This document shows positions 5,701-34,999 of a stretch of DNA of 34,999 bases, piece after piece. Numbering within the stretch: the first letter of the stretch is position 1; each line of letters opens with the position of its first letter. The DNA is from a virus. Taxonomy: Duplodnaviria > Heunggongvirae > Uroviricota > Caudoviricetes. The stretch spans positions 64,001 through 98,999 of IMG/VR virus record IMGVR_UViG_3300023174_000099; one strand, 5' to 3'. The notes below the pieces were generated by a model. That model was not told where the DNA came from, did not search any database, and saw only the letters and a list, made by a program, of their open reading frames with translations. The translations under genes and the position numbers were made by a program.

Positions 5701-8112
5701 AACTTGATCAGTAGCTTTAAGCTGTGACTGTAGATTTTCAAACGCCTTACCTACAGGATTCATATCCCTAGTTACTAGTTTCATTACTTCCGTAAGTCTA
5801 GTATTAGTTACAACAAAAGATTCTCCCGCTTTTGTATTATTTACGAAATCTTTGTATAACTTAGGACTTTGCTCGTTTAGAATATTTAAAGACTGAGCCA
5901 TTTGCAAAGCTTCATCACTAAAGTCTTGCATCATAGGTATAAACCCAAATGTACTTTTAGCCCCACTCAATCCAGAGACAAAATTAGCCGCCTGAGACTG
6001 TATAGGTACACCTGCTTCTTCTGCTAAAGTCTTTTGTAGTCTTAATCTCTTTTGTCTTTGTTCTAGAGCGAGCTTTTCTTCAATGGACATATCAGAGATT
6101 CTTTTACCATTCGATAGGCCTCTGGAAATATTCGAGTATTCTAGCTCATTTTTAGCTGCTAGATTCGCAGCTTCACCGGCTTTAATATAGGCATCGGCGA
6201 GTTCTACAAGAGTATTGGCTTTTATTATATTTGCCTGAATTACCCTATCCCCGACTTGCTGGTCACTAGCTACTACTCTAGCATACTCTTCTAGTTTACC
6301 TTTAGTTGAATCCACTACTCTACCAAAATCTTCGTAAGCCTTAGTTTTAGCTCTATCTGCATCAGTTACGAAGAACTTATCATAAACGTATTGTAAGACA
6401 GAAATAGCAGCAGCTATAATACCTATCCAGTTGAGTGCGGCTACTAGAGCTATAGCCATACCCTTGAGGGCCGTTGTCGTAAATAGAGCGGCTACTCGCA
6501 CACCATCTAGCGCGGCTTTAACAGCTAAAAATCTAGGTGCCGCTAGTCCAGCCGCTTCTGCGCTGGCTACTTGGGCGGCTCTCATAGCCCCTAGCTCAGC
6601 TTTATAAGCTTTACTAGCTTCTATATTTTTTACGAAGGCATCCTTAACTTTCCCTTTACTAGCAGCATCAATAGATCCAGCTATAGCAGTTTCTTTGGAG
6701 GCTTTTAATTCAGCTAAATTAGCTTCTCTTGCTAACTTAGCATTTTCTTTCTCACTTTGCTGCACTTTCTGTCTAGCAGCTTCAGTTTGATTAATACTTT
6801 CTATAATTAGAGTATTAGCTGCAATAAAATCCCTAGCTCTAGTTTTTGCTGCTTTTGCAGAGTCAGAAAAATCAGTATCTAAGTCTTTCAGAGTCTTTGA
6901 GTATCTTTTACTCGAAGCTTCTAAGGATTTAATAGTTTTATTAACTTCTTCCTCTGTTGCACTGCTATCAATAATTTTAGGTAGGTTTTCTTTAGCAATA
7001 CCTGGAAGCCTTGTAGATAAAGATGTAGCAGCTTCTAAATTATTTTTAGCTGATTCCTTAAGGTCCTTACTAGATTTTAGCGCTAATTCTGCACTTTTAC
7101 TTAAATCCTTGGCCTTATCGTTACTTGCTTTAGCTGCTGCTTCTGCTACCTTGGATAAGTTTACAATAGAGCCAAGTAGTTGACCTTTAATCGAGCTTAC
7201 AAACAAAGCTGATACAGCAATTAATCCGGCAAATCCATTATTTAAATTATCTAGTATAAACCTGAGAGTATCACTAGTAGCAACAAATCCTAGTACAGAT
7301 TGTACTAAATTCTGGAATGAGGCCGCTAATCTATCAAATTGATTAGTATCTACAGCGTTCTCGACTCCAGCGTATTTTTGAGTACCTTCTGTTAAAATAG
7401 CTTGAGTAAATGCAGCTCTCTTTTCAAAATTAGTTAAAGAAGCAGCAGACTTACCTTGCTGTCTAGCATAGGCTTCCGAAGCCTCGGTAAGTTTGGTCAT
7501 TAAACCAAGCTCGTCTAGAAGTTCCGGCTCTAGTTTAGTAACACCCTTGATAATACGATCTAGAGAGTCTGGAACATTTCTACCTAAGACTTTACTAGCA
7601 TTAGTTGCTACCTTTGTTAGGTCTTCTAGATCTTTTCCGGAAATTCCTGATGTACTGCCCTGAGCGGCTGCTCTCATAGCTTCGGAGGCACTAATACTGC
7701 CATCTGTAATTTCTTGAATGTTCTTAGCAACAGTAGTAAGAGTTCTACCGGTCTTAGCGCCCTGTATTTCAAGACCTTGCATAAGTTGTTCAACTTGGGC
7801 TGCTTCCCTCAAAGCATTAAAAGAAGCACTAACGGCGAAAGCGTTAGCAGCTAGAGTAGCATATGCCCCGACTAGCCCGCCATTCCCCTGCCCAATAGTT
7901 TGATTAAGTTTAGAAAAACTGCGTGCAGCACTGGATGCACCAGTTACTCCCTGGTTCATTCTATAGTTTAGATGGTCTGCGGCATCTCCAGCTTCCCGAG
8001 CCTTCTTGCCTGCTTTCTGTGTTTCATTGCCGAAGGCAGTTACTTGCTTCAAGCCCGTAACTAGACCGTCAGCATTAACTACAACACGAAACTCGACGCT
8101 GTTACTTGCCAT
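2728..8112 (-). CDS. Tape measure protein (1794 aa)
   Basis: Long Ala/Leu/Lys-rich helical ORF with hydrophobic segments near aa 280-310 and 540-580. C-terminal GFVVGEKGPEVITP motif. Follows the tail chaperones. Confidence 0.93.
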   Translation of the reverse strand: MASNSVEFRVVVNADGLVTGLKQVTAFGNETQKAGKKAREAGDAADHLNYRMNQGVTGASSAARSFSKLNQTIGQGNGGLVGAYATLAANAFAVSASFNALREAAQVEQLMQGLEIQGAKTGRTLTTVAKNIQEITDGSISASEAMRAAAQGSTSGISGKDLEDLTKVATNASKVLGRNVPDSLDRIIKGVTKLEPELLDELGLMTKLTEASEAYARQQGKSAASLTNFEKRAAFTQAILTEGTQKYAGVENAVDTNQFDRLAASFQNLVQSVLGFVATSDTLRFILDNLNNGFAGLIAVSALFVSSIKGQLLGSIVNLSKVAEAAAKASNDKAKDLSKSAELALKSSKDLKESAKNNLEAATSLSTRLPGIAKENLPKIIDSSATEEEVNKTIKSLEASSKRYSKTLKDLDTDFSDSAKAAKTRARDFIAANTLIIESINQTEAARQKVQQSEKENAKLAREANLAELKASKETAIAGSIDAASKGKVKDAFVKNIEASKAYKAELGAMRAAQVASAEAAGLAAPRFLAVKAALDGVRVAALFTTTALKGMAIALVAALNWIGIIAAAISVLQYVYDKFFVTDADRAKTKAYEDFGRVVDSTKGKLEEYARVVASDQQVGDRVIQANIIKANTLVELADAYIKAGEAANLAAKNELEYSNISRGLSNGKRISDMSIEEKLALEQRQKRLRLQKTLAEEAGVPIQSQAANFVSGLSGAKSTFGFIPMMQDFSDEALQMAQSLNILNEQSPKLYKDFVNNTKAGESFVVTNTRLTEVMKLVTRDMNPVGKAFENLQSQLKATDQVQTDFSRSIRASTQYDEPLKSIEQLNTAFNQVIYTLEKSPEKAKAVEQFQEALTAIGPSVLNIMSVDTQRIKASFDQVSDSISALKAKRKELEEAPGNNRGQIAIVDSQIVEQVGIQVELRKKLASSIPNELKAYSDILRDNQLITISSQAQVTLAQARLSALQRQGIVTGEDVKKQIALQNSIVAAQVKQEKANLALIEAEGRKLEARELQIKQEERLLDLMKSQTIQQERQGLLAKVTQAKSGTAEKVSAISDLAAFDAMVRSGATPEELRKQKELEKAELRRQREVNAAQTAAQRAKVQAAGLGATTKAEERAAVSLQKLNNLKTTTQLQNESKNLALETQDIEARIADSKVGGLNTLKLELDAIKRNNEEKLKQLKVDQQFRVREIEINLEKARSLNNTSQVKFYTDLLNATKERNTAETKNTEAKNQQAILDKIGLNTEEERLNLLRESLSIQERIQSVIVDNIRSQADLANITRRLELRRLGVSDETISRGEEIANAETALKIAQQEKDMKVALIKLEFALLEAKRQQSLTELKNRLEGIDDERKRSGDPLALSGQRSTILASIENLGGTLVNGELKFGESIVKYAGDAAAVIENGVKIAAKNLENVKFKRRASGPGDIMGETRGITENILKEFGKESTEALPIAGKLALTADIVSANMSRIRDSLMELGPEGAIVVAIGDGIANLSGAFSELGKATNNKEMLAAGLNAASAVLSTISSITKASSDARIASIDREIAAEQKRDGKSAESISKLQALEKKKDDIARKSFNTQKKLMLAQAVMSTAAAIASVLASPMLDPVSKTIFAGIIGAMGAAQIAVIAGTQYNSGAKSTAAATPSTLSIGKRSDTVDLARGPSANAGGEVGFLRGSQGMGTNASNFRTIGSAYGGELMRGYGNRGFVVGEKGPEVITPETPINVTPANDVMGSAPVNATINIQALDASGVENILVSQKGNIIKMLRQAANASGQGFLEDVNVNVYTRPNVNRL

Positions 8113-8917: not shown

Positions 8918-9793
8918 TTAACTCCTTATTATTGGTATAATTGTTACTGTATTATCAGTGAGTCTAAAATCGTAGACTCGGGTTAGTAATTCCTCTACAT
9001 TTAGTCGTCTGGTATAGACTGCTTCTGCTAAATTAAATGTAAGGAACGGCGGATTTTGATTAGAATCTGTGTATAGTTTAATAACTATCGGAACAGACGC
9101 ATCGAAGTCTGGACTACTTATAGAATTCTCTAGGATAAACTCAGTGACTGATCCTGAAACTCTTCTTTCAGTTAGGGAATAACTTTCTTTATACGCTATT
9201 TGCGAGACTACGCTTTTATGTAGCGTAGAATTCTTAGTCCATTCTATAGAATTATTAACTTCAAGATTAACTGCTGCAATAGAAGGTAGTACGATTCCAT
9301 CTACTGTAACTTCTACTCCCCTAATAATTGTGTAGGGATCAGTATTAGATACTTCTGGAGTAGCTGGAAGACTAGCAACTTCTGATAGAATCGAAGCGGT
9401 GCCAGAAACAGAAGCTGTAAAGACGGCTCTTGATTCTATATTGAAAGTAATATTCTCAATGACTGAGGTAGCCAGTTTGTATATTTTATTTGAGAAATCT
9501 ACATAAATATCAATTGGAGCAATAGTACCTGTTATATAGTCCGGCCCAAATAGGCCACTAAGCGGCGCTAGTTCAGTCGCATATTTAATAGGAATCGTAA
9601 AGCTAAAATTAGCCGGATTTGCTTCTACAATAGTAGCTCCCTGATTGAGAGCTAACTGATTATGTAAAGTTTTCTTATTGTAACTCTGTTCATTAAATGT
9701 TTGAGAAAAGCTAAGATCAGGATATACATCTATAGGGTATAGAATACTATCTATGTAAAAGTATAATCGACCTTCTTTTTTAAAGTTGTACAT
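8918..9793 (-). CDS. Minor tail / baseplate tube protein (T5 p140-like)
   Basis: True start is probably ATG 9793 (MYNFKKEG), preceded by GGAGGT. The track start at 9877 runs through a promoter and terminator. It follows the tail tube gene. Confidence 0.8.
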   Translation of the reverse strand: MYNFKKEGRLYFYIDSILYPIDVYPDLSFSQTFNEQSYNKKTLHNQLALNQGATIVEANPANFSFTIPIKYATELAPLSGLFGPDYITGTIAPIDIYVDFSNKIYKLATSVIENITFNIESRAVFTASVSGTASILSEVASLPATPEVSNTDPYTIIRGVEVTVDGIVLPSIAAVNLEVNNSIEWTKNSTLHKSVVSQIAYKESYSLTERRVSGSVTEFILENSISSPDFDASVPIVIKLYTDSNQNPPFLTFNLAEAVYTRRLNVEELLTRVYDFRLTDNTVTIIPIIRS

Positions 9794-21035: not shown

Positions 21036-21682
21036 TATAAAGGTACTGCATTTTGCAGGTATCCTACGACACTCTTAGAGATAGCGTGAGTTCGTGAAAC
21101 GATCTCTTTATCACTAGCGGTGCTCTGGGCTGGTAGTCCAACGGTAATCGTACCAATTGGATACTTAAGCGGATTTACAAGAGGGCATACTGCTACTCTG
21201 CTAAGTTCGTATTTAGAAAAATAACGACTAGTAGAAATATCTATGCCTTTTGTTATCATGATACATTGAGGATTATCAATAGAAGACCACATTTTGCGAA
21301 GGCTTCTATTAGATGCCGACAGTGGTTCTTCTATTTTAATCTCATCAACTTTTTCAGTGTAAAAGGTAGTTGTAGCTTCAGTGAACGGAATTCCCGTAAG
21401 GTCATGCCGTCCGTTATGAAACTGTCGTATAACAACACTATGAGCATCTAGATCAATCGCTAGATTTTCTATGGCTTCATTCACAAGTTCAGCGCTTTCA
21501 AGCTGAGCCTTGAATCTCTCAGATTCTTCCGTTGGACTTATAATCGAACGTTCCAACATATCGTAGCTTCTATAGCCAATATACGTCATTATAATTATAA
21601 GAACACCCGCTAGGGTTGGAAGGGGTCTTAATGCTAGGGAATTTACGAGTCTTCTTAAAGCGTCACTTATCTCCTTTATCAA
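21035..21682 (-). CDS. T4-T/T5-type holin: one N-terminal TM helix plus a GAF-like periplasmic domain
   Basis: Single TM (LPTLAGVLIIIMTYIGY). VVIRQFHNG and AVCPLVNPLKYPIGTITVGL resemble the T5 holin YTCPYFNLNNIYAGYIGIAW as I recall it. The TTG start is uncertain. Confidence 0.6.
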   Translation of the reverse strand: MIKEISDALRRLVNSLALRPLPTLAGVLIIIMTYIGYRSYDMLERSIISPTEESERFKAQLESAELVNEAIENLAIDLDAHSVVIRQFHNGRHDLTGIPFTEATTTFYTEKVDEIKIEEPLSASNRSLRKMWSSIDNPQCIMITKGIDISTSRYFSKYELSRVAVCPLVNPLKYPIGTITVGLPAQSTASDKEIVSRTHAISKSVVGYLQNAVPL

Positions 21683-22082
21683 GCAGTCTCTCCATCAACT
21701 GTCCATAGTTGCCTTGGCCAAAGTTAGCAATATTAACTGTTGGTCCAGTTTGGTCATTCTTTATCTCATCGACGCGCATCTGGTGCGCGAACTTGAGAAG
21801 TTCTAGAAGATCTTTGGAAGTATAGATGCCACTTTCTTCAGCTTCTTCCAGCTTGGACTGTATCATACGATCGAGGACTTCCCCGATCTTATGCTTGTTT
21901 CGATAGCCTCGATCGAGATAGATTCCTGTGATGTAGTCTTTAACGTCCTTGCGCTCAAGTAGCTGAACTACTTGATACTCTGGAATTTGTAGTTGCTCGG
22001 CGGTGTCTTTGGCAGAACCATAAGTAAGATAAGCATTAGCTATATCTAGAGCTTCGGGAGTTAAGGCTACATGGTTACTCAT
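21663..22082 (-). CDS. terS: Terminase small subunit (T5-like)
   Basis: LTPEALDIANAYL..G...L.R..VK.YI..IYLD.GYRN...IG.VLD.MI..KLEEAEESG..TSKD matches the T5-family TerS pattern. Confidence 0.85.
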   Translation of the reverse strand: MSNHVALTPEALDIANAYLTYGSAKDTAEQLQIPEYQVVQLLERKDVKDYITGIYLDRGYRNKHKIGEVLDRMIQSKLEEAEESGIYTSKDLLELLKFAHQMRVDEIKNDQTGPTVNIANFGQGNYGQLMERLLDKGDK

Positions 22083-26542: not shown

Positions 26543-28393
26543 TTATACTGTTAAACTTGGTAGTTGCGCATTAGCCCAACGAACGGGGTAGTAGCTGATG
26601 CTCCTAAGGTGGCCGTTTAGATAGTTACCTGATCCACTCCAGTTGGAGCCTAAGTACATACGATTCGATGCCGTATTAACGATACCCACAGTATCCGTAC
26701 GCGCTGCCTGTCCACCTAGGCTTTCACCGAAGTTATTTACTGCATATGCAAACGCATTTTTTATTGGCACCGCGACATTGGCGACGGAAAACGTGGTTAT
26801 ATCGCCAGCTTGTCCTGTACCGCCGACAACCAAATTAGCACCACGAAATGAGTTTCCGCTAGAGTAATTGCCATACATACTGTTGTTAAACGTGTTATCA
26901 GATATGGCATAGGGCAAACTTGTACTATTCGCACCAGCAACTTGATTACATTCTACAACAACCGTCCCCTCACTCTGATTGTACCAGCTAGAGAAGTTAG
27001 TGCCGGTCATCGAAGCATTGTCGGCTGCACGCGTGGACGTGGAGGCCGCGGTGGGGATGTAGCTGGTGGCAAACGCGCCGAGTTCGGTCTGTGCACCCCA
27101 GACATAAAAACTGTCCGTTCCAGTGCCAGCGATATTGCCGTTGCCTCCGGCATCTGTCGGATAGAGTTTCAAGCCAACCGACGTAAAAGCACCCGCGCTG
27201 GTGAATGTCACGGAACACCTAAACCAGCCGTTTCCTGCCGGCGTAATCGACGCTGCCGTTGCACCTCCCGCAGTAGACGCAGTTACTGCGGTGAGGTTGA
27301 ATTGCCCCACTTGAGTGCCAAATCCGGTAGCGTCGTTCTGGATGCGTATAAAGGGAGTTGCAGCGGCCTTAAGATACGTTGTCGCAGTATAAGACACGCC
27401 AGCCGCGCCCGATGCGGGAGCGTAATATTGTAATGTGTGGAAGGTGGTGCTAGTATTCGCAACAAAGGCGTCGGCGTTGGTTGTTCCGTCAGGTGAAACT
27501 GTAGCGTTAGCCGTTATCGAAACTGCGCTCTTACTCCACGCTGCGTTATCAAACTGCTCCGAATACAGAGCCAAGTTGACCCGCTGCTCCTCGATCAGCA
27601 AACCTCTTGACGCTAGCGTGACTGGGTCGTAGTCGAATCGTGGGCCATAATAAGCCGAAGCAACTGTCTGCACGTATGTAGATGGCTGTGTCTGGTAAGT
27701 GACTTGCTCAAACTGTGCTCCCCATACGAATAGACCGCTGGTACCATCGCCCGTGTAGGATGACGGCGCGCTGGTGCTGTTGAGGGAGAGGCGAATTTGA
27801 TAGCCCCCAGTTGTTGCGGTAGAAACAGGATAAGCCATTGAACATCGATACCATCCATTACCTACATCAGTGATCGTAGACGTTACCGTGGCTGACGGTG
27901 CGCCCGCAGTACCGTTCGTAAGATCAAAACCGGCAATGTAATTGCCACTGCCAGGAGCTTGTTGCGTAACAATAAGTTGAATAAATGTGCGTTCTCCTGC
28001 CTTTGCATATACACTAAAAACGTAGATTTGTCCTAGTGCGGGGGAAGGTACAAAGGGTGTATTAGGAGAAATCCAATGCCCAGTAGTAGCCGCCGTGTTC
28101 TCGACCAACTTATCCGCAGTGGTAGTACCATTCGGTGCCACAGTGGCATTGGGCGTAATGGTAGAAGCCGTCTTTCCCCAGCTCGCGTTGTCAAATTCCT
28201 CTGATCGCAGAACAAGGTTGTTAGGCGCATAGGTAACTCGTCCAGTCGAATCGACTAGGGTAGCGTTCGAAGCGCGGCTAAAAGTGACGCGACTATCTAG
28301 GGTCGTTCCGGCTAGGAAATTAAGGCTTAACGTTTTAATTAATGGCTTGTAAGTGCTTCCAACTAGGAAGCCAAGCGATATTGGTTTTGTCAT
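26543..28393 (-). CDS. Virion fibre/adhesin, single-module paralogue of 22373..26011
   Basis: Same motif set once (616 aa), with visible DNA-level similarity to both modules of the larger gene. Confidence 0.75.
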   Translation of the reverse strand: MTKPISLGFLVGSTYKPLIKTLSLNFLAGTTLDSRVTFSRASNATLVDSTGRVTYAPNNLVLRSEEFDNASWGKTASTITPNATVAPNGTTTADKLVENTAATTGHWISPNTPFVPSPALGQIYVFSVYAKAGERTFIQLIVTQQAPGSGNYIAGFDLTNGTAGAPSATVTSTITDVGNGWYRCSMAYPVSTATTGGYQIRLSLNSTSAPSSYTGDGTSGLFVWGAQFEQVTYQTQPSTYVQTVASAYYGPRFDYDPVTLASRGLLIEEQRVNLALYSEQFDNAAWSKSAVSITANATVSPDGTTNADAFVANTSTTFHTLQYYAPASGAAGVSYTATTYLKAAATPFIRIQNDATGFGTQVGQFNLTAVTASTAGGATAASITPAGNGWFRCSVTFTSAGAFTSVGLKLYPTDAGGNGNIAGTGTDSFYVWGAQTELGAFATSYIPTAASTSTRAADNASMTGTNFSSWYNQSEGTVVVECNQVAGANSTSLPYAISDNTFNNSMYGNYSSGNSFRGANLVVGGTGQAGDITTFSVANVAVPIKNAFAYAVNNFGESLGGQAARTDTVGIVNTASNRMYLGSNWSGSGNYLNGHLRSISYYPVRWANAQLPSLTV

Positions 28394-28417
28394 AAAAATT
28401 TCTCCTCATTTGTATGA

Positions 28418-28446
28418 ATTATACCAGTGTGGGGATTCTGCGTCAA
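28418..28446 (-). promoter_or_regulatory. Sigma70-type promoter for the fibre-TerS-lysis-TerL run
   Basis: TTGACG-17-TATAAT, then GAGGAG and ATG 28393. Confidence 0.8.
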
Positions 28447-28488
28447 GCTTTTTTTGAGTGAGGTTCCTAGACAGCTTTTTCTAGCACA

Positions 28489-29217
28489 CTAGAGTCTTAG
28501 GATTTCCCATCTGCCGTCCATGTGTTCTACAAGTGCGGTCTTTGACTCTACCCAGTCTCCGTCGTTCATATAGATAATATCATTTACGGTCTTTATCTCG
28601 GCATAATGAATGTGTCCGCAGATGACTCCGTCATAACCTTTTCGCTTGGCGTAGGCTGTAATGGTTAGCTCGAACTCGAAAATGAAATTGATCGCTTTCT
28701 TGACGCGATGTTTCAGCCACTTGCTAAGAGACCAGTATCCGAAGCCGAGTCGGTGCCTTATCCAGTTGAATCGGCTGTTTAAGTCGAGAATTATGTCATA
28801 GGCTTTGTCGCCCATGAAGCTGAGCCACGGTGACAGTCTAGTGATTCCGTCAAAGAGGTCTCCGTGTACGACGAGGTATTTCTTGCCGTCTAGGCCTTCG
28901 TGAACGATCTGATTGCAGATTTTTACGTTTCCGAAGTTGGCAGCGTATCGAATCATGGGTCTGAGGAACTCGTCGTGGTTTCCTGCGACGTAGATAATCT
29001 GGGTTCCTTTGCGGGACTTCTTGAGAAGGGTTCGGACCACATCAGTGTGGCTGTTTTTCCATTTGAACTTATTCTGCTGAATCTTCCATGCGTCTATAAT
29101 ATCCCCGACTAGGTATATTTTTTCGCTTTCTACGGTTTTGAGAAACTCGTTGAGTTCTGCGGCTTTCGAGTCTTTCGAGCCAAGATGAACGTCACTAATA
29201 AAAATTGATTTGTACAT
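28489..29217 (-). CDS. Calcineurin-like metallophosphoesterase, UDP-2,3-diacylglucosamine diphosphatase (LpxH/YbbF)-like family
   Basis: SDVHLG, VGDIID, AGNHD, VHGD.FD, ICGHIH, YMNDGDWVE. Confidence 0.88.
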   Translation of the reverse strand: MYKSIFISDVHLGSKDSKAAELNEFLKTVESEKIYLVGDIIDAWKIQQNKFKWKNSHTDVVRTLLKKSRKGTQIIYVAGNHDEFLRPMIRYAANFGNVKICNQIVHEGLDGKKYLVVHGDLFDGITRLSPWLSFMGDKAYDIILDLNSRFNWIRHRLGFGYWSLSKWLKHRVKKAINFIFEFELTITAYAKRKGYDGVICGHIHYAEIKTVNDIIYMNDGDWVESKTALVEHMDGRWEILRL

Positions 29218-29237
29218 AGGTCTCCTCCTTAAGTGGC

Positions 29238-29266
29238 ATTATACTAGAGTTGGGTTTAATTGTCAA
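29238..29266 (-). promoter_or_regulatory. Consensus sigma70 promoter for the metallophosphoesterase
   Basis: TTGACA-17-TATAAT, then AAGGAGGAG and ATG 29217. Confidence 0.85.
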
Positions 29267-29338
29267 TCTTTTTTTAGGTGGGGTACTGGGAGCGACGGTT
29301 AGAATAGTTCTTGACAGTTGGGGAGAAAAATTTAGTTG

Positions 29339-29367
29339 TTGACAAAACCGCCCCTTTATGCTATAAT
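29339..29367 (+). promoter_or_regulatory. Consensus sigma70 promoter, divergent from the previous one
   Basis: TTGACA-17-TATAAT; ATG follows 6 nt later. Confidence 0.85.
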
Positions 29368-29373
29368 CATTTC

Positions 29374-29958
29374 ATGATAAAGCATTGGACAATCGAGGAA
29401 GAGCAGACATTAAAGTCTATGAAAGAAGCAGGAGCCGATTTTTACGAAATCGCCCAGGAATTAAATAGAAGTGACGAAGCTATAAGGACTAGGTGGAAGA
29501 GACTAAGGGCTCGTGAGGGTAAAATTTCGCATATTGGGTGGAGTGAAGAAGAAATTGCATTACTGCACGAGCCATTATCCTATGAAGAACTAGTTCCTAA
29601 ACTAGGGAAAAGTAAGAGATCAATTCAGTCAATCTGTGAGAAGCTGGGGATAAGCAAGAGGTACCCTGGGGCTAATAATATTGGCACAATGAATAGAAGT
29701 TTACCTACCATACTATATTTGGTAGACTTTGGAAGTTTTAAAAAAGTAGGTATTACTCAAGTAGGAATTGAGGAAAGATTAAAGCAGGACGGTAACTATA
29801 ATATACTAGACTATTGCGAGTTAGATACAGATGCTGCTGTAGAAACTGAAAAAGAAATTTTAAAAAATATGCGACCATATTTGGTGCGAGGAACTGTAAG
29901 AAAAGGCTCTACTGAGTGCTTTGACTATCCCTGCGCCCAACTATCAGATTTACTCTAA
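29374..29958 (+). CDS. Putative homing endonuclease-like protein: W(T/S)xEE helical repeats plus GIY-YIG-like C-terminus
   Basis: HWTIEEEQTL and GWSEEEIALL; LYLVDFGSFKKVGITQ..IEERL. Same architecture as 1892..2674 minus the zinc ribbon. Start reassigned from 29311 to ATG 29374. Confidence 0.65.
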   Translation: MIKHWTIEEEQTLKSMKEAGADFYEIAQELNRSDEAIRTRWKRLRAREGKISHIGWSEEEIALLHEPLSYEELVPKLGKSKRSIQSICEKLGISKRYPGANNIGTMNRSLPTILYLVDFGSFKKVGITQVGIEERLKQDGNYNILDYCELDTDAAVETEKEILKNMRPYLVRGTVRKGSTECFDYPCAQLSDLL

Positions 29959-29999
29959 GTGGTACGTACTCGGTAGTCCGAGCGCATATATGTAAGACT

Positions 30000-30101
30000 A
30001 GTCTAATAACCGGGCCTATAGGTGTCAAGCAATTTCTTTCACATTACAAATTTGTAATGCAAATTATTTTTGTTGACTTCCCTTCCTCGCCGGCCTATAA
30101 A
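30000..30101. promoter_or_regulatory. Module A: leftward promoter, palindrome, rightward promoter
   Basis: Minus TTGACA(30028-30023)-17-TAGACT; CATTACAAATTTGTAATG at 30042-30059; plus TTGACT(30073)-17-TATAAA(30096). Confidence 0.8.
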
Positions 30102-30126
30102 GGGACATCAACAGGGAGCAAGACAG

Positions 30127-30279
30127 ATGTTTAAGAAATTCATTGCCCTTCGCATGTATCGCTATTATCAGCGCAAGGTTAAGCAAGAGCCTACTCTTGC
30201 CAACTATAGCGAGATGGCCAAATGAAGCAATCGCTGGTATCGGTTGGAATATCCCAACGCAATCCAACGGGCATGGTAA
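30127..30279 (+). pseudogene. Small ORF with an in-frame TGA (32 aa, or 50 codons if read through)
   Basis: MFKKFIALRMYRYYQRKVKQEPTLANYSEMAK*SNRWYRLEYPNAIQRAW*. GGGAG SD upstream; the final TAA overlaps the next gene's AAGGAG. Confidence 0.45.
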
Positions 30280-30291
30280 GGAGAAAAGAAA

Positions 30292-30501
30292 ATGAAGATT
30301 ACTTATGAAGAATGGAATTGCGATGGTATTTGGGCCGCCCATGGGGAGGACCAAATGCTTTGCATCAAAAAGGATAGAGGGAGCATTATCGTAGGAATTG
30401 AAAACTGCGATGGCACTATTGAGAATTCATGCACATATGCCGAATCCGAATATATGGAAGCCTTTTCAGACTTCCTAAAGAGAGGCACAGACAACGAATG
30501 A
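30292..30501 (+). CDS. Hypothetical pre-early protein (69 aa)
   Basis: AAGGAG SD; the stop is followed immediately by a module hairpin. Confidence 0.75.
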   Translation: MKITYEEWNCDGIWAAHGEDQMLCIKKDRGSIIVGIENCDGTIENSCTYAESEYMEAFSDFLKRGTDNE

Positions 30502-30504
30502 TAG

Positions 30505-30639
30505 ACTTAGGGCCGATTCGGCCCTAAGTTGGCGCCGATTTTACCAGGCCCCAGCGAATTTGTCAAGCGAAAAAATGCAGATTACAAATTTGTAATGCAA
30601 ATCTTTTCTGTTGACGTGGCCAGCCTGTAAGCCTATAAA
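30505..30639. promoter_or_regulatory. Module B: hairpin, GCGCC, leftward promoter, palindrome, rightward promoter
   Basis: ACTTAGGGCCG-att-CGGCCCTAAGT at 30505-30529; minus TTGACA(30566-61)-17-TAAAAT(30543-38); palindrome 30581-30596; plus TTGACG(30611)-17-TATAAA(30634). Confidence 0.85.
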
Positions 30640-30666
30640 GGGACATAACCAAGGGAGAACGACGAA

Positions 30667-30930
30667 ATGTTTGACATTACCTCAAATAAAGGTTTTCACA
30701 TGACTTTTGCTAACGGCTGGACTGTTAGCGTGCAATGGGGCAAAGGCAACTATTGCGATAACAAATATATCGGAAAATATGGGGAGACTCCCGCACCTAG
30801 CAAGGATGCAGAAATTGCGGCATGGGATGCCAATGGCGAATGGATGGTATTTGGCAATGATGATAATATGAAGGGATATTGCAGCCCTGATGAGGTTGCG
30901 GCCTTTATCGCAAAGATTGCAGCAATGTGA
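30667..30930 (+). CDS. Hypothetical pre-early protein (87 aa)
   Basis: AAGGGAG SD downstream of the module B promoter. GFHMTFANGWTVSVQWG...AEIAAW...GY..PDEVA looks like a common phage hypothetical family. Confidence 0.8.
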   Translation: MFDITSNKGFHMTFANGWTVSVQWGKGNYCDNKYIGKYGETPAPSKDAEIAAWDANGEWMVFGNDDNMKGYCSPDEVAAFIAKIAAM

Positions 30931-30933
30931 ACA

Positions 30934-31059
30934 GAGGTGTGTTACTTCGGTAACACACCTCGCGCCGATTTTAGCAGGTCGCGCAAAATTTGTCAAGCGA
31001 AAAAATCGCACATTACAAAAAAATAAGGGATTGCCATCCTGCTAGGGATTGCCTATAAA
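30934..31059. promoter_or_regulatory. Module C: UUCG hairpin, GCGCC, leftward promoter, half-palindrome, rightward promoter
   Basis: GAGGTGTGTTAC-ttcg-GTAACACACCTC at 30934-30961; minus TTGACA(30996-91)-17-TAAAAT(30973-68); plus TTGCCA(31031)-17-TATAAA(31054). Confidence 0.85.
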
Positions 31060-31080
31060 GAGTCATCAACAACAAAGGAA

Positions 31081-31563
31081 ATGGAAATGCCCTACGTAAT
31101 CTTTGATCTTGACGGCACGGTGATTGATAGCAGCCACCGCAAGGCAACACGTATAGATGGTTCGCTTGATTTAGAACATTGGCTGGAAAACAACACGCCA
31201 GAAAAGATTGCGCTTGACAAGCTTTTGCCGCTGGCGCGCGTGATGAAAATTCTGGCCAATACTTGCCATGTTATCGTCTGCACGGCCCGTGCAATTCAAC
31301 AGGCCGATTTGGATTTCATGGCCGCTAACGGCCTGAAATACAACGCTTTTCTGTCGCGTGAACATGGCAACAATGAAAGCGACGAAAGCCTGAAAGAGCG
31401 TCTTTTGTCCAACTATTTCAAGGGCTTGGGCCTTGCCAGCGTTGCAGACGCTAAGGCAATCTTTTTCGATGACAATCTGGCGGTGCTGGATGCTATCGCA
31501 AAGCTTGGCGTTACTTGCTATGATGCAACTATCGCTAATAATCGCCTAGCAAGGAGGGTTTGA
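31081..31563 (+). CDS. dmp: HAD-family phosphatase, T5 deoxynucleoside-5'-monophosphatase homologue
   Basis: IFDLDGTVIDSSHR...DGSLDL...D.LLPL...VCTAR...FFDDN..VL parallels T5 Dmp as recalled. The start may be ATG 31087 by SD spacing. Confidence 0.85.
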   Translation: MEMPYVIFDLDGTVIDSSHRKATRIDGSLDLEHWLENNTPEKIALDKLLPLARVMKILANTCHVIVCTARAIQQADLDFMAANGLKYNAFLSREHGNNESDESLKERLLSNYFKGLGLASVADAKAIFFDDNLAVLDAIAKLGVTCYDATIANNRLARRV

Positions 31564-31566
31564 GAA

Positions 31567-31632
31567 ATGGATTTCTTCACTATCATCATGATTTTGTTGG
31601 CAATTGTCATGGTGCTGCTATTCGTTGACTAA
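31567..31632 (+). CDS. 21-aa single-TM micropeptide
   Basis: MDFFTIIMILLAIVMVLLFVD. AAGGAGG upstream; the stop abuts the module hairpin. Below the ORF-track cutoff. Confidence 0.65.
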   Translation: MDFFTIIMILLAIVMVLLFVD

Positions 31633-31633
31633 G

Positions 31634-31739
31634 ATTTAGGGCCGAAATGGCCCTAAATTTGCGCCAAAATTTTAGCAGGTTTTTTCAGGTCTGTCAAGCG
31701 TTTTTTTCGCTTGACAGAATCTTTTTTCGCTGCTACCCT
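31634..31739. promoter_or_regulatory. Module D1: hairpin, GCGCC, back-to-back promoters
   Basis: ATTTAGGGCC-gaaat-GGCCCTAAAT; minus TTGACA(31697-92)-17-TAAAAT(31674-69); plus TTGACA(31711)-17-TACCCT(31734). The two -35 boxes form CTGTCAAGCG-T7-CGCTTGACAG. Confidence 0.8.
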
Positions 31740-31743
31740 TTCA

Positions 31744-31805
31744 GGGGTGGGAGGGAGGGCCAGGCGCGCTGGCACTGTATTAGCAGGCTAATACAGTGCC
31801 AGCGC
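31744..31805 (+). ncRNA. ORF-less unit: G-quadruplex motif plus 18-bp hairpin
   Basis: GGGGTGGGAGGGAGGG at 31744-31759; GCGCTGGCACTGTATTAG-cagg-CTAATACAGTGCCAGCGC at 31766-31805; lies between convergent promoters. Confidence 0.45.
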
Positions 31806-31807
31806 CG

Positions 31808-31909
31808 ATTTTAGCAGATCGCGTAAAATTTGTCAAGCGAAAAAATGCAGATTACAAATTTGTAATGTTGAAAATATGTCTTGCGCTGCGGCCTGCCTTT
31901 CCCTATATT
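31808..31909. promoter_or_regulatory. Module D2: leftward promoter, palindrome, rightward promoter
   Basis: Minus TTGACA(31836-31)-17-TAAAAT(31813-08); palindrome 31851-31866; plus TTGCGC(31881)-17-TATATT(31904). Confidence 0.8.
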
Positions 31910-31919
31910 CAATTCATGG
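31831..31919 (+). repeat. 89-bp perfect direct repeat, copy 1
   Basis: Identical to 32454..32542 by direct comparison. Confidence 0.9.
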
Positions 31920-31959
31920 GAAGCGGATGGGCCGCCTACCATGACAAGGAAACTAGAAT

Positions 31960-32280
31960 ATGACGACTGCAACTAAGGTGACTGAAAAGAACTATACGGA
32001 AGCGCAAGAGGCAATCTTGCTTGCCGCTGGCATTATCGACAATGCGAAGGCATTGGAAATCGCCGCCAAGATTGGCAAGGACGTGAAATCGGTTCGTGCG
32101 AAGGCCGTTCGCATGGGCATTTACAAGGCCGCTGAAAAGAAAAGCAAGAGCGGTGGCGCTGTCGAAAGCAAGGAAAAGATTGCTGCCGATATTGCCTTGC
32201 TTGTGGGCAAGAACATGGAAGGCCTTGAAAAGGCTCCCAAATTGGCCTTGCAAATCATCCGGGAAAAGCTTTCGGCTTAA
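31960..32280 (+). CDS. A2: T5 A2-like DNA-binding pre-early protein
   Basis: NYTEAQ...EIAAKIGK...SVRAKAVRMGIYK.AEKKSK.GG...K...IA......LEKA.K.AL parallels T5 A2 (SVRSKL...YQKSDKPRKVGGG...LESAKLETL, recalled). AAGGA SD. Confidence 0.75.
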   Translation: MTTATKVTEKNYTEAQEAILLAAGIIDNAKALEIAAKIGKDVKSVRAKAVRMGIYKAAEKKSKSGGAVESKEKIAADIALLVGKNMEGLEKAPKLALQIIREKLSA

Positions 32281-32301
32281 CCCATTGAAAAGGAAAGAGA
32301 A

Positions 32302-32332
32302 AGGCCGGGAGAAATCCCGGCCTAACTTTTTT
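32302..32332 (+). terminator. Terminator-like GAAA hairpin after A2
   Basis: AGGCCGGGA-gaaa-TCCCGGCCT-aac-TTTTTT. The same stem recurs at 34494-34513. Confidence 0.7.
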
Positions 32333-32353
32333 GTTAGAAAATGATTTTTTCGC

Positions 32354-32382
32354 TTGACAGGCCCGCGAAAGCCTGTTATAAT
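32354..32382 (+). promoter_or_regulatory. Perfect sigma70 promoter with no downstream ORF
   Basis: TTGACA-17-TATAAT. The spacer carries the inverted repeat CAGGC...GCCTG. Paralogue at 34703..34731. Confidence 0.8.
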
Positions 32383-32453
32383 GGGACAGGCGCCGAAAAA
32401 TTGCGCCAGAAATTTTGCACGCTACTTTAAATATAACATGCGAGGTTAGGCGC

Positions 32454-32542
32454 TGTCAAGCGAAAAAATGCAGATTACAAATTTGTAATGTTGAAAATAT
32501 GTCTTGCGCTGCGGCCTGCCTTTCCCTATATTCAATTCATGG
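32454..32542 (+). repeat. 89-bp perfect direct repeat, copy 2 (leftward -35, palindrome, rightward promoter)
   Basis: Identical to 31831..31919. Palindrome 32474-32489; TTGCGC(32504)-17-TATATT(32527). Confidence 0.9.
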
Positions 32543-32559
32543 ACAAGGAAGGAAAACAA

Positions 32560-32844
32560 ATGACGGTTCTGCAAAAAATCAAGGAAATGCCCGCTCCCGA
32601 ATTGGGCGGCTGGCTGGGAATGTGCCTTATTCATGGCGCAACTATTCCGACAACTGCCGGGAATATTCTTGGCTATTCCACTACTTTGCCGCCATTGTCG
32701 ATGGTGTTGCTTGTCTGGTCTGGCCTTGCATTGTTTCTGTGGCGCGCGATTGCCCGGAATGATTTTCTCTATACTGTTAGCAATGCTGTCGGATTTGTTC
32801 TGAATAGCGTATTGCTTGCAATTATTGTTTTTCCACTAGCATAA
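32560..32844 (+). CDS. Three-helix membrane protein, SemiSWEET/PQ-loop-like
   Basis: 94 aa from ATG 32560 (AAGGAAGG SD). GWLGM.LI..ATIP...W.GL.LF...AI.RND.LY..SNAVGF.LN..LL resembles the MtN3/PQ-loop pattern but lacks the PQ. Confidence 0.6.
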   Translation: MTVLQKIKEMPAPELGGWLGMCLIHGATIPTTAGNILGYSTTLPPLSMVLLVWSGLALFLWRAIARNDFLYTVSNAVGFVLNSVLLAIIVFPLA

Positions 32845-32853
32845 GGAAAGAAT

Positions 32854-33006
32854 ATGCACAAACACTGTAAAGGCTGCAAATTCCACTGGAAGGGTGGCGC
32901 AATCCCTAAATATCAGGATTGGTGCAGCAAATTTAGCGATATTGCATCGCACAAAGTAGGGCATTGCCTGCTAATGAAAGGAAAAGAAAATGTCCCTATC
33001 AATTGA
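32854..33006 (+). CDS. 50-aa Cys/His-rich peptide, probable metal binder
   Basis: MHKHCKGCKFHWKGGAIPKYQDWCSKFSDIASHKVGHCLLMKGKENVPIN; AAGGA SD overlapping the previous stop. Confidence 0.7.
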   Translation: MHKHCKGCKFHWKGGAIPKYQDWCSKFSDIASHKVGHCLLMKGKENVPIN

Positions 33007-33052
33007 TTCGCGGCCTGACCGTCGCACTATAATTGAAAGGAAACAACAATGA
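32990..33052 (+). CDS. Possible 20-aa peptide
   Basis: MSLSIDSRPDRRTIIERKQQ; AAAGGA SD; its TGA overlaps the next ATG (ATGA). Confidence 0.4.
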   Translation: MSLSIDSRPDRRTIIERKQQ

Positions 33053-33159
33053 TTTCATGGGTGGGCTGGAAAGGGCCTTTATTTAATCGCCATGATGTGC
33101 TGCTTCATGGTTATACAAGCTTTAAGCTTGGCCCCTTCATCTATTATCATTTCTGGTAA
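33049..33159 (+). CDS. 36-aa aromatic-rich peptide
   Basis: MISWVGWKGPLFNRHDVLLHGYTSFKLGPFIYYHFW; AAAGGA SD; the stop overlaps the next SD. Confidence 0.6.
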   Translation: MISWVGWKGPLFNRHDVLLHGYTSFKLGPFIYYHFW

Positions 33160-33170
33160 AGGAAAGAACA

Positions 33171-33422
33171 ATGAACGTGACTTTCAATTCCGATACTATC
33201 GCAATGCTTATTCATGAGATTGACGATATGCTTTGCAATGCCGACATTACTGCTGGCATGTGCGATGATTTATCCAATCTTCTCAATGCCTTGATGGCGA
33301 TTGGCGAAACAGGCTCTATCGTTATTGTGCCGGATGATAATAATATTGGGGATGATTGGGATGATGAAGACGATGGGCCAGATTCTCCCACCCCTAGCGG
33401 CTGGACTCTAATCAAAGCCTAA
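33171..33422 (+). CDS. Highly acidic hypothetical protein (83 aa)
   Basis: AAAGGA SD; Asp-rich C-terminus (DDNNIGDDWDDEDDGPD); followed by a module palindrome. Confidence 0.75.
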   Translation: MNVTFNSDTIAMLIHEIDDMLCNADITAGMCDDLSNLLNALMAIGETGSIVIVPDDNNIGDDWDDEDDGPDSPTPSGWTLIKA

Positions 33423-33428
33423 AGATCC

Positions 33429-33562
33429 GGTGTGTTGCTGTATTAATACAGCAACACACCCTGGCGCCAAAATTTTAGCAGGATTCCGTTGCGCTGTCAA
33501 GCAAAAAATTTGCTCTGAATGAAAATATTTTTCTTGTTTCTGCCGAATTTTTCTGTTATAAT
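33429..33562. promoter_or_regulatory. Module F: 32-bp perfect palindrome, GGCGCC, divergent promoters
   Basis: GGTGTGTTGCTGTATT|AATACAGCAACACACC at 33429-33460; minus TTGACA(33500-495)-17-TAAAAT(33477-72); plus TTGTTT(33534)-17-TATAAT(33557). Confidence 0.8.
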
Positions 33563-33614
33563 GGATTGATGCCTGCTCGCCAAGGTGTATTAGTCAGCTA
33601 GGACACTGGCGCCG
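33563..33614 (+). ncRNA. Small-RNA-like unit 1
   Basis: GGATTGATGC...TGTATTAGTCAGCTA...CTGGCGC directly after a TATAAT; no ORF; homologous to the minus-strand unit at 34553..34638. Confidence 0.45.
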
Positions 33615-33717
33615 ATTCTAGCACGCCTGCCTAGGCGTTGTCAAGCGAAGAAAAATTCGCTTTTGGATGCAATTTGGTTCTTTCCCCTGTTGCAATGCCT
33701 GCCGGTTCTGGTAATGT
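33615..33717. promoter_or_regulatory. Module G: leftward promoter and weaker rightward promoter
   Basis: Minus TTGACA(33644-39)-18-TAGAAT(33620-15); plus TTGCAA(33690)-16-TAATGT(33712) with an extended TG. Confidence 0.6.
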
Positions 33718-33761
33718 CTCTTTGTCGGCAGCGAGTCGGCAGCAACTAGGGATTACCCAAA

Positions 33762-34481
33762 ATGGGCAAGCAAGCTACTTTCCTGATTATCGACACGGAA
33801 ACCACCGTGCGCGGCAATGTTGCCGATTTCGGCGCTATCGTGGCCAATCGCAAGGGTGAAATTCTCGCATCTTGTGGCGTGTTGGTTCGGGAATTTTATC
33901 TTGATCGGGAAAATAACCCGCTATTTCATGATGTTACGGCTGACCCACTTTGGGGCAAGGCCAATCTTCCCCGCCGTTATGCGGCATATGACGCAATGCT
34001 GCAAGATGGCCGCCGAATGCTGGCAAGTGTTGCCGCCGTCAATCGCTGGCTTGCCAAGGTAAACGCCAAGTATTCGCCTGTTGCCACCGCCTATAATAAG
34101 GCTTTTGACTGGGATAAACTGGACAAAAGCGGTATTGATTGCCATATGTTTGAACAATCGTTCTGCCTCTGGCACGCTGCCGCTGATAAGTATGTGAAAA
34201 CAAAGGCTTTTCGGGACTTCATTCTGGAAAACCATTGTTTCAATCCCCCAACTAAAAAGGGCAACATGACTTTTAAGACTGATGCTGAAGTCATGGCGCG
34301 TTTTATTACTGGCAATGCCGATATGCCGAATGAGCCGCATACTGCACTTGAAGATGCCCGTGATTACGAATTGCCTATTCTTCTTGATATTATCAAGGCC
34401 AAAGACAAGGCAAAGTATTTGCAGCCAAAGCCTTATTCTTGGCAAGGTGTTCAAGTCAAGGATTGGTTCAAGCCAAAGTAA
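33762..34481 (+). CDS. DEDDh (DnaQ-like) 3'-5' exonuclease
   Basis: ExoI LIIDTETT, ExoII AYNKAFD, ExoIII EPHTALEDA. Confidence 0.88.
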   Translation: MGKQATFLIIDTETTVRGNVADFGAIVANRKGEILASCGVLVREFYLDRENNPLFHDVTADPLWGKANLPRRYAAYDAMLQDGRRMLASVAAVNRWLAKVNAKYSPVATAYNKAFDWDKLDKSGIDCHMFEQSFCLWHAAADKYVKTKAFRDFILENHCFNPPTKKGNMTFKTDAEVMARFITGNADMPNEPHTALEDARDYELPILLDIIKAKDKAKYLQPKPYSWQGVQVKDWFKPK

Positions 34482-34493
34482 AGGCAAAGTAAA

Positions 34494-34513
34494 GGCCGGG
34501 AGAAATCCCGGCC
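34494..34513. terminator. GAAA hairpin after the exonuclease, identical to the post-A2 stem
   Basis: GGCCGGGA-gaaa-TCCCGGCC; no U-tract on the plus strand. Confidence 0.55.
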
Positions 34514-34528
34514 AATACTTGCACGCCT

Positions 34529-34549
34529 TATTGATAATGATTCTCAATA
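34529..34549. promoter_or_regulatory. Fur-box-like inverted repeat 1
   Basis: TAT-TGATAAT-G-ATTCTCA-ATA: 13 of 14 matches to the 7-1-7 Fur consensus TGATAAT-N-ATTATCA. Confidence 0.6.
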
Positions 34550-34552
34550 GCA

Positions 34553-34638
34553 CGCGCCAGCGGGTGCCTTAGCTGACTAATACAGGCCACGCGAGTGTGT
34601 TACCCCACTAGGACACCATCCCGAACGCGCATCAATCC
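34553..34638 (-). ncRNA. Small-RNA-like unit 2
   Basis: Minus strand GGATTGATGC...TGTATTAGTCAGCTA...CTGGCGC directly after TTGACA(34668-63)-18-TAAAAT(34644-39). Confidence 0.45.
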
Positions 34639-34702
34639 ATTTTACCACGTTTGCCCGGCTTTTGTCAATAGAATAAATTTGCATCGGACAAAATTTTTCC
34701 TA

Positions 34703-34799
34703 TTGACAGGCCCGCACAAGCCTGCTATAATAGGGGCGCAGGCGCCAAAAATTTGTCAAACTGCGCCAAAATTTTACCACGTCTAGCGGGACGTGTCAA
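34703..34799. promoter_or_regulatory. Convergent promoter pair with about 39 bp between the -10 boxes
   Basis: Plus TTGACA(34703)-17-TATAAT(34726); minus TTGACA(34799-94)-17-TAAAAT(34776-71); two GCGCC-AAAA copies between them. Confidence 0.8.
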
Positions 34800-34832
34800 C
34801 AGAAAAATCGCACATTACAAAAAAGAAATGGC

Positions 34833-34886
34833 TTGACGGCACGAAAAAATCCCGCTACCATATATGGGTGGGAGGGCGGGGGAGGG
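34833..34886 (+). promoter_or_regulatory. Promoter followed by a five-run G-quadruplex motif
   Basis: TTGACG-17-TACCAT(34856-61), then GGGTGGGAGGGCGGGGGAGGG at 34866-34886. Confidence 0.7.
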
Positions 34887-34897
34887 CCGAAAATCCT

Positions 34898-34918
34898 TAT
34901 TGATAATGCGTCGCAATA
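34898..34918. promoter_or_regulatory. Fur-box-like site 2
   Basis: TATTGATAATGCGTCGCAATA; shares CCTTATTGATAATG and CAATAGC with site 1. Confidence 0.5.
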
Positions 34919-34999
34919 GCAGCAATGGCTGGGCCCGATATAATGCATTATGTTCAATAGATTTATCCCAATGAATCCAATGGGTTAGGTCGCTCCCAC

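What the first reader, a model, noticed from the sequence alone, without database searches (positions are those of the whole stretch)
30505..33477. Variable perfect hairpins are fixed at the +1 of the leftward promoters and lack U-tracts
Seen: five hairpins of different sequence end 2-11 nt from the leftward -10 and abut or overlap GCGCC (30505-29, 30934-61, 31634-58, 31766-805, 33429-60). At module C the minus strand reads TAAAAT-CGGCGC-GAGGTGTGTTAC..., so the RNA would start on the first base of the stem. Four of the five lie 1-6 nt after a stop codon. On the plus strand they are followed by GCGCC, not poly-U. Known: 5' stem-loops stabilise RNA; GC-rich discriminators mark ppGpp-sensitive promoters; U-less hairpins can terminate through RNAP collision. 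Inference: one hairpin serves as both the 3' end of the mRNA and the 5' cap of its antisense RNA.
Basis: partly seen in the sequence, partly recalled or inferred. Interest (0 to 1): 0.75.

Follow-up and report, generated by a model that had tools for sequence, protein, structure and literature searches.

The report
Host repressor sites at backward promoters
In the first-injected DNA of an uncultured T5-like phage, the 'hairpins' at the start of gene-less backward promoters are mostly copies of binding sites for the host's own gene regulators (here the envelope-stress repressor YtrA, in relatives Fur and others), so the phage may wire its earliest genes to host proteins; binding and purpose are untested.

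Summary
All five palindromes are real, lie 2-11 nt from strong leftward sigma70 promoters and lack U-tracts. They are not fixed at +1 (range -4 to +6). Three of the five (30934, 31766 and, weakly, 33429), plus three non-folding copies at 33585, 34564 and 34595, share one dyad, TGTNNTA-N6-TANNACA. In bacterial genomes this dyad sits before YtrA-type GntR repressor and ABC-transporter genes, so it is a YtrA operator. The phage encodes no GntR, and its probable alphaproteobacterial hosts carry the site. In related T5-like contigs, 139 of 338 such promoters carry a palindrome (other promoters: 3 of 497). The slot holds interchangeable host-type sites (Fur, parS, a porin-promoter motif). RNA-hairpin signatures are mostly absent, but gene-end copies are perfected and probably also protect the mRNA 3' end. 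Best reading: host-repressor-gated counter-promoters that tune pre-early genes; sign and purpose are unknown. The palindromes at 30505 and 31634 stay unassigned. This scan had already reported the cassette in other T5-like genomes (read as hairpins) and Fur boxes in other phages; the YtrA identity and operator swapping were worked out here.

The parts
30505..30529 (.). Perfect palindrome B (8-5-8 core shared with D); cognate protein not identified
   Evidence: no enrichment or consistent gene context in bacterial genomes
30532..30566 (-). Leftward sigma70-type promoter B (-35 at 30566, extended -10 at 30538-43) with GGCGC discriminator
30581..30596 (.). 16-bp AT-rich palindrome between the back-to-back promoters (also 30043, 31851, 32474); binder unknown
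   Evidence: conserved in relatives; not enriched in Sphingomonadales
30611..30639 (+). Weak rightward promoter (-10 lacks the last T), back-to-back with promoter B, ahead of ORF 30667; a like one lies at 30073-30101
   Evidence: sequence; function inferred
30934..30961 (.). Perfect palindrome C: YtrA-type operator (30937-58) plus 3 extra pairs; UUCG loop on the mRNA strand
   Evidence: score 17.1, rank 2 in the genome; fits GGTG-N16-CACC cited in PMC6746942
30962..30996 (-). Leftward promoter C with GGCGC
31634..31658 (.). Perfect palindrome D (same core as B); swapped for an unrelated hairpin in close relatives
31661..31697 (-). Leftward promoter D with GGCGC
31766..31805 (.). Perfect palindrome E: YtrA-type operator (31775-96) plus 9 extra pairs that run into GGCGC; not after a stop codon
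   Evidence: score 10.9, rank 5
31802..31836 (-). Leftward promoter E with GGCGC
33429..33460 (.). Perfect palindrome F: two overlapping, degenerate YtrA-type sites (33430-51, 33438-59), one mismatch each; weak match
   Evidence: score 0.1, ranks 7-8
33464..33500 (-). Leftward promoter F with GGCGC
33585..33606 (.). Imperfect, non-folding YtrA-type operator at the same slot of leftward promoter 33644; best match in the genome
   Evidence: score 26.8; fold z -0.3 and -1.1; kept in relative L387
33609..33644 (-). Leftward promoter with GGCGC and no perfect hairpin
34564..34616 (.). Two more imperfect YtrA-type operators (34564-85, 34595-616) downstream of leftward promoter 34668

Best explanation
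Each junction between pre-early genes holds a cassette in this order: stop codon of gene n, a host-type operator, a strong gene-less sigma70 promoter pointing back into gene n, a spacer palindrome, and a weak forward promoter for gene n+1. Shown: the anatomy, the match of C, E, F and three further sites to the bacterial YtrA operator, the lack of a phage GntR, and the use of other host-type sites in the same slot in relatives. Inferred: a host repressor (here YtrA) binds over about +3 to +28 of the backward promoter and gates it. When the repressor is off or absent, the promoter fires into gene n and competes with, or is topologically coupled to, the back-to-back promoter of gene n+1. Pre-early expression is thereby tied to host proteins before any phage protein exists. 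At gene ends the operator has been perfected into a full inverted repeat that also serves as a U-less protective 3' stem of the mRNA. Whether firing lowers or raises pre-early expression is not known.
For: The motif occurs 7 times in 3.7 kb, only with a 6-nt spacer, and once in the rest of the genome. A phage-derived pattern hits 78/80 intergenic sites in GTDB genomes; of 73 adjacent proteins, 38 are ABC ATPases and 14 GntR. No GntR is found in the phage. A permuted alphaproteobacterial tmRNA points to the host class. The site is present in 73/101 Sphingomonadales-order genomes, mostly before ytrA-like genes. Imperfect copies keep the motif but do not fold. YtrA-type sites follow GCGCC or such a promoter in other phages (L405, L408, L410, L414, L111). 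In relatives, 139/338 promoters have a palindrome against 3/497 controls, and 119/122 face a converging gene. Fur boxes follow 26, parS 17 and a porin-promoter motif 22 of them, against 0-2 in controls. The Fur pattern precedes feoB, FTR1 and a TonB receptor, and the porin motif precedes porins, in bacteria. Centres of 0-2 nt occur in 57/147 against 19/140 terminators; stable tetraloops in 5/89 against 25/40.
Against: No binding or transcription data exist. Palindromes B and D and the spacer palindrome match no host site that I could find. F is a weak match. The scoring matrix was built from sites selected with a phage-derived pattern, so its scores are partly circular; the gene-neighbour test is not. 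The signals do not form one logic: parS and IHF sites sense nothing obvious. In close relatives the slot at D is swapped for a hairpin with only a degenerate, off-centre site, so structure also matters. The loci are related phages, not independent events. The host is inferred, and the phage record is about 89% complete, so a missing phage regulator is not excluded.
Confidence: 0.38

Rival explanations
1. Protein-coat model: the identity of the signal does not matter. The phage loads any tight-binding host protein plus RNA polymerase onto the first-entering DNA, to break xenogeneic silencing, insulate neighbouring genes as roadblocks, or anchor and shield the DNA during the first-step pause.
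For: Operators are interchangeable: 32 of 78 loci carry two or more motif families, and L414 has four promoters with four different palindromes. parS and IHF sites are among them. The cassettes are confined to the terminal region. The region is 46% G+C, below typical alphaproteobacterial hosts (own knowledge). T5's injection-stop region has LexA- and Fur-like palindromes.
Against: It does not explain why the site overlaps the start of a near-consensus promoter in a fixed orientation. Low-abundance local repressors such as YtrA are a poor choice for a coat (inference).
Confidence: 0.2
2. Sponge model: the sites titrate host repressors so that host regulons (envelope ABC systems, iron uptake) switch on in a way that helps the phage. 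The promoters are secondary.
For: The phage has six to seven YtrA-type sites against one to four in host genomes. Several are symmetrised beyond host sites, which can raise affinity (own knowledge, lac O-sym).
Against: One incoming genome cannot titrate abundant Fur, IHF or ParB (inference). T5 destroys host DNA within minutes (10.64898/2026.04.02.716235). The model does not need the promoter.
Confidence: 0.12
3. One reading: the stem is the mRNA 3' end, made by collision with polymerase from the opposing promoter, and also the 5' cap of a stable antisense RNA. Operator-like sequences are only raw material for hairpins.
For: All five fold strongly on both strands. Perfection correlates with a nearby converging stop. 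The D-slot swap keeps a hairpin. C has a UUCG loop. 101/139 stems start within 5 nt of the presumed +1.
Against: The motif is conserved in non-folding copies and in non-palindromic sites (IHF, tandem repeats) at the same slot. Arms are AT-rich (36% G+C against 64% in terminators, which were selected at 50% or more) with short centres, and show no antisense-strand G-U or tetraloop bias. Neither strand is the more stable overall (32 against 29). Published collision terminators have both transcripts ending at the stem (10.1101/2022.10.23.513370).
Confidence: 0.2
4. PeSL-like shuffling cassettes: the repeats mainly serve as recombination joints for gene gain and loss. The palindromes are hitch-hikers perfected by template switching.
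For: 89-bp identical repeats; a relative's contig joins 30551 to 30990 and so lacks one gene; wholesale swaps at one slot; precedent in PMC2839356.
Against: It does not explain the backward orientation, the invariant GGCGC or the repeated use of real host operators.
Confidence: 0.1

Closest known systems
YtrA-subfamily GntR operators (PMC4494728, PMC6746942; B. subtilis ytr operon, PMC12772383)
   Same: Long dyad with GT/AC far from the centre, covering a transcription start; C fits GGTG-N16-CACC exactly; the same pattern precedes ytrA and ABC genes in bacteria.
   Different: It lies in a virulent phage with no cognate gene, occurs six to seven times, and controls no downstream ORF.
PeSL cassettes of T4-type phages RB49 and phi1 (PMC2839356)
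   Same: Repeated intergenic unit of a strong sigma70 promoter plus stem-loop after a stop codon, in a variable early region; acts as a recombination joint.
   Different: PeSL promoters drive the next ORF. Here the strong promoter points backward and is gene-less, and the stem is an operator-type sequence that varies between cassettes.
Collision-driven bidirectional terminators of E. coli (10.1101/2022.10.23.513370)
   Same: A stem-loop between convergent transcription units that terminates poorly by itself.
   Different: There both RNAs end at the stem. Here the opposing RNA would begin at it, and promoter-bound polymerase would cover it.
Injection-stop region of phage T5 (NC_005859, 9140-10149)
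   Same: Non-coding, palindrome-rich first-step DNA with LexA- and Fur-like dyads.
   Different: The GGCGC backward promoter is absent from T5 and eight other cultured phage records searched.
Host-regulator sites in phage genomes (LexA in prophages, CtrA in alphaproteobacterial phages; own knowledge)
   Same: A phage uses a host transcription factor on its own promoters.
   Different: Those control coding promoters with one factor. Here a gene-less promoter slot accepts many factors' sites.

Membership tests
YtrA-subfamily operator | Long (about 22-24 bp) palindrome with GT/AC far from the centre and fixed spacing | tested here: met
   met for C, E, 33585, 34564, 34595; weak for F; not for B and D
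YtrA-subfamily operator | Same motif precedes ytrA and ABC genes in bacteria, including the likely host group | tested here: met
YtrA-subfamily operator | Adjacent cognate regulator gene (autoregulated operon) | tested here: not met
   no GntR match in the phage record; the protein would have to come from the host
YtrA-subfamily operator | Binds YtrA and represses the overlapping promoter | not testable with these tools
   needs EMSA, ChIP or reporter assay
PeSL cassette | Strong promoter drives the downstream ORF through an SD and start codon | tested here: not met
   119/122 face a converging gene
PeSL cassette | Repeated promoter plus stem-loop acting as a recombination joint | tested here: inconclusive
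   repeats, one deletion joint in a relative's contig, slot swap
Intrinsic terminator | Stem followed by a U-tract | tested here: not met
   2/139 on the mRNA strand in relatives
Collision-type bidirectional terminator | Both convergent transcripts overlap and end at the stem | tested here: not met
   by anatomy the opposing start lies at the stem; RNA ends were not measured
5'-terminal stabilising stem-loop | Stem begins within a few unpaired bases of the real 5' end of an RNA | tested here: inconclusive
   geometry fits with an assumed +1; no start-site data (one search is contigs only)
T5 programmed nick site | Consensus R-GCGC-R-GG on the minus strand (own knowledge; matches the annotated nick at 9749) | tested here: not met
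   none of the five GGCGC boxes fits

The most novel reading that the evidence does not exclude
A large uncultured branch of T5-like phages carries, on its first-injected DNA, a modular panel of gene-less promoters, each plugged with a captured host operator (YtrA, Fur, porin regulator, parS and others). The panel reads the state of the cell during the first-step pause and sets pre-early output, and perhaps the decision to inject the rest of the genome.
Probability: 0.25. Interest if true: 0.9.

Novelty: new variant of a known kind. Interest (0 to 1): 0.7.

Why it matters
Why T5-like phages pause after injecting about 8% of their DNA, and what the palindromes in that DNA do, are old open questions. 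Identifying the palindromes as named host operators turns an unexplained repeat into a direct experiment: host regulator knock-outs, half-site versus pairing mutants, and reporters. If the sites gate transcription, strictly lytic phages sense envelope or iron status before committing. The operator vocabulary could also help assign hosts to uncultured phages.

Tried and rejected
No similar DNA was found among cultured phages. The promoter pattern is absent from T5, My1, AhSzq-1, Ceto, PM135, D386, ValDsh2, FZ41 and RHph_TM16, so no cultured model was found. Rfam gave only sub-threshold matches in 28000-34999. The T5 nick consensus does not fit the GGCGC boxes. The B/D core was not assigned: it is not above the reversed control in Sphingomonadales or Alphaproteobacteria, near-matches have no common neighbour, and metagenome and viral hits were close relatives or unrelated hairpins. 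The spacer palindrome was not enriched in Sphingomonadales. A Pho-box-like reading of the L001/L014 palindrome was inconclusive. My first label 'HexR' for one motif family was dropped, because in bacteria it precedes porins and HU rather than sugar genes. An apparent G-U bias toward the mRNA strand (13 against 3) comes largely from one motif family and vanishes in folding energies, so I do not count it as general evidence. T-tracts after the repeat on the promoter strand (22/139 against a 5.5% baseline) may reflect T-ending arms. A test of whether Fur-box flanks are more paired than in hosts had only four host sites. The one RNA run holds only contigs of a 90-95% relative and cannot show strand, starts or ends. 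Paper searches for host-operator decoys or YtrA sites in phage termini found nothing relevant; the library lacks most subscription papers.
Full report
Setting. The window is the right end of a 98,999-base virus contig. It encodes a T5-type terminase, portal, head, tail and tape-measure set; the terminase is 47% identical to T5-like Vibrio phages. By position relative to T5, the stretch from about 29.3 kb is the probable terminal-repeat, pre-early region; this is inferred, since the ends were not mapped. The phage carries 20 tRNAs and a permuted tmRNA that passes Rfam's alphaproteobacterial family. An alphaproteobacterial host is therefore likely. The tag peptide resembles Sphingomonadales tags (own knowledge).

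Observation. The five palindromes, their gaps to the leftward -10 boxes (8, 6, 10, 2, 11 nt), the four nearby stop codons and the missing U-tracts are as described. The chance of five such repeats at ten promoters is about 1e-8. Taking +1 as the seventh base after the -10, the stems begin between -4 and +6, so only module C starts exactly at +1. Half of the leftward promoters have no perfect hairpin.

The cassette is a family trait. A pattern for the promoter with its GGCGC box hit more than 119 viral stretches. Among 338 distinct such promoters in 124 loci, 139 have a perfect inverted repeat starting within 25 nt of the -10. The same holds for 3 of 497 other strong promoters in the same loci and for 15 of 333 windows further downstream. 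Of the 65 loci with such a repeat, 60 encode a relative of a window protein, 49 the terminase. With simple gene calls, 119 of 122 repeat-bearing promoters face a converging gene, whereas other promoters face a sense gene 265 times against 50. These loci are related, so the counts show conservation and not independent origins. The element was not found in T5 or eight other cultured records.

The palindromes read as DNA operators. Compared with terminator-like hairpins in the same loci they have short centres (0-2 nt in 57/147 against 19/140) and almost no GNRA/UNCG loops (5/89 over both strands against 25/40). They have few G-U pairs on the antisense strand (3 of 41 mismatches against 21 of 48). 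Their sequences fall into recurring families. Fur boxes follow 26 promoters in 16 loci, parS follows 17 (consensus as in PMC7022226), a further dyad follows 22, and single NtrC-like and several IHF-like sites occur; controls give 0-2. The Fur pattern precedes feoB, an FTR1 permease and a TonB receptor in bacteria, and the further dyad precedes porins. One contig, L414, has four such promoters with four different palindromes.

In this window the operator is YtrA's. The dyad TGTNNTA-N6-TANNACA occurs seven times between 30938 and 34615 with at most one mismatch. Other spacers give one hit in total in the terminal region, and the rest of the genome has one copy. It underlies C, E and F (F as two overlapping degenerate copies) and three imperfect sites. 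A pattern made from the phage copies hit 80 listed GTDB loci, 78 of them intergenic. Of 73 adjacent proteins, 38 are ABC ATPases and 14 GntR regulators, which is the standard YtrA regulon (PMC4494728). Module C matches the Xanthomonas YtrA motif GGTG-N16-CACC quoted in PMC6746942. The site is present in 73 of 101 genomes of the order Sphingomonadales against about nine for the reversed control. All 20 inspected were intergenic, and at least half lie directly before a GntR gene. The phage record has no GntR gene. A host-derived matrix ranks five window sites as the top five of the genome and F as seventh and eighth; this score is partly circular. The best site, 33585, occupies the same slot behind leftward promoter 33644 and does not fold better than shuffles, nor do the two at 34564 and 34595. 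That is the internal control: motif kept, hairpin lost. YtrA-type sites also follow GCGCC or such a promoter in L405, L408, L410, L414 and L111, with different centres but the same spacing. B and D share a different core that I could not assign.

Structure still matters at gene ends. C and E carry 3 and 9 paired bases beyond the operator, more than host sites usually do. Perfect repeats are found at 74% of promoters within 60 nt of a converging stop and at 26% of those beyond 150 nt. In two close relatives the hairpin after the small gene at 31568-31632 is replaced by an unrelated one with G-U pairs that favour the mRNA strand, and in L384 the promoter is unchanged. The simplest reading is a U-less stem that shields the mRNA 3' end from exonucleases (own knowledge of REP-type stems). 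A 5' cap on an antisense RNA is geometrically possible but has no support of its own.

Mechanism. Shown: anatomy, conservation, operator identity by sequence and gene context, and exchange of operators. Inferred: a host repressor bound over about +3 to +28 keeps the backward promoter quiet. Release of the repressor (in B. subtilis the YtrA operon responds to lipid II cycle stress, cold and stationary phase; PMC12772383) lets it fire into gene n and alters use of the weak back-to-back promoter of gene n+1. The GC-rich discriminator would add sensitivity to ppGpp and supercoiling (own knowledge). The sign of the effect is open: interference would lower pre-early expression, while divergent supercoiling could raise it. 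I give this reading 0.38, a signal-blind protein coat 0.2, the RNA-only model 0.2, a repressor sponge 0.12 and passive shuffling cassettes 0.1.

Comparison and novelty. The unit resembles PeSL cassettes (PMC2839356) in layout and mobility but fails their defining forward-driving promoter. It fails the intrinsic terminator and published collision-terminator definitions. Host operators in phages are known; a gene-less backward promoter with a swappable host operator was not found in the papers I could search. Earlier notes of this scan describe the same cassette in three other T5-like genomes as promoter-hairpin units, and Fur boxes behind promoters in rV5-like phages; they are unchecked notes, not support. 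Verdict: a real, conserved element whose palindromes are better read as host operators with a secondary RNA role; new variant of a known kind; interest 0.7.

Noticed in passing
L429:258-522 (G000:C1 about 21460-21720): The phage encodes a two-piece (permuted) tmRNA of alphaproteobacterial type, plus 20 tRNAs.
   Followed up: partly
L016:9409-9428 and 9552-9576 (phage T5 injection-stop region): A near-perfect LexA-box-like palindrome and Fur-box-like palindromes lie inside T5's iss; identification by consensus from memory.
   Followed up: no
L055, L097, L116, L119, L121, L031 and others: parS consensus sites sit within 60 nt downstream of 17 backward promoters in 12 viral loci, often behind a Fur box or another dyad.
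   Followed up: partly
window:34526-34552 and 34895-34921; genome 38 and 206: Fur-like boxes in the non-coding end of the region, so this phage may use a second host regulator.
   Followed up: no
window:33557-33606 and 34555-34644: A second promoter class whose -10 is followed by GGATTGA; the same leader occurs in L011, L013 and L015, where it precedes CtrA-box-like dyads.
   Followed up: partly
window:32354-32459 and 34703-34799: Pairs of strong promoters face each other head-on over about 45 nt with GGCGC boxes between them; the same layout occurs in L001 and L014.
   Followed up: no
window:30551-30990 and 29323-30041: Contigs of a 90-95% relative in a freshwater RNA library skip these stretches, consistent with gene loss by recombination between cassettes and absence of the HTH-endonuclease gene.
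   Followed up: partly
window:13856-16870: The head protease and major capsid domains appear in one 1004-aa ORF, unlike T5.
   Followed up: no
L008:215-250, 2756-2791, 5890-5925: In this relative the promoter spacer is complementary to the -10 and discriminator, so the promoter itself is a palindrome.
   Followed up: no
L419, L421, L423, L424, L427: An apparently unnamed dyad lies upstream of porin and outer-membrane genes in diverse gammaproteobacteria; its regulator was not identified.
   Followed up: partly
window:31740-31765 and 34865-34890: G-run clusters behind weak rightward promoters, noted by the first stage as G-quadruplex motifs; one lies directly before palindrome E.
   Followed up: no
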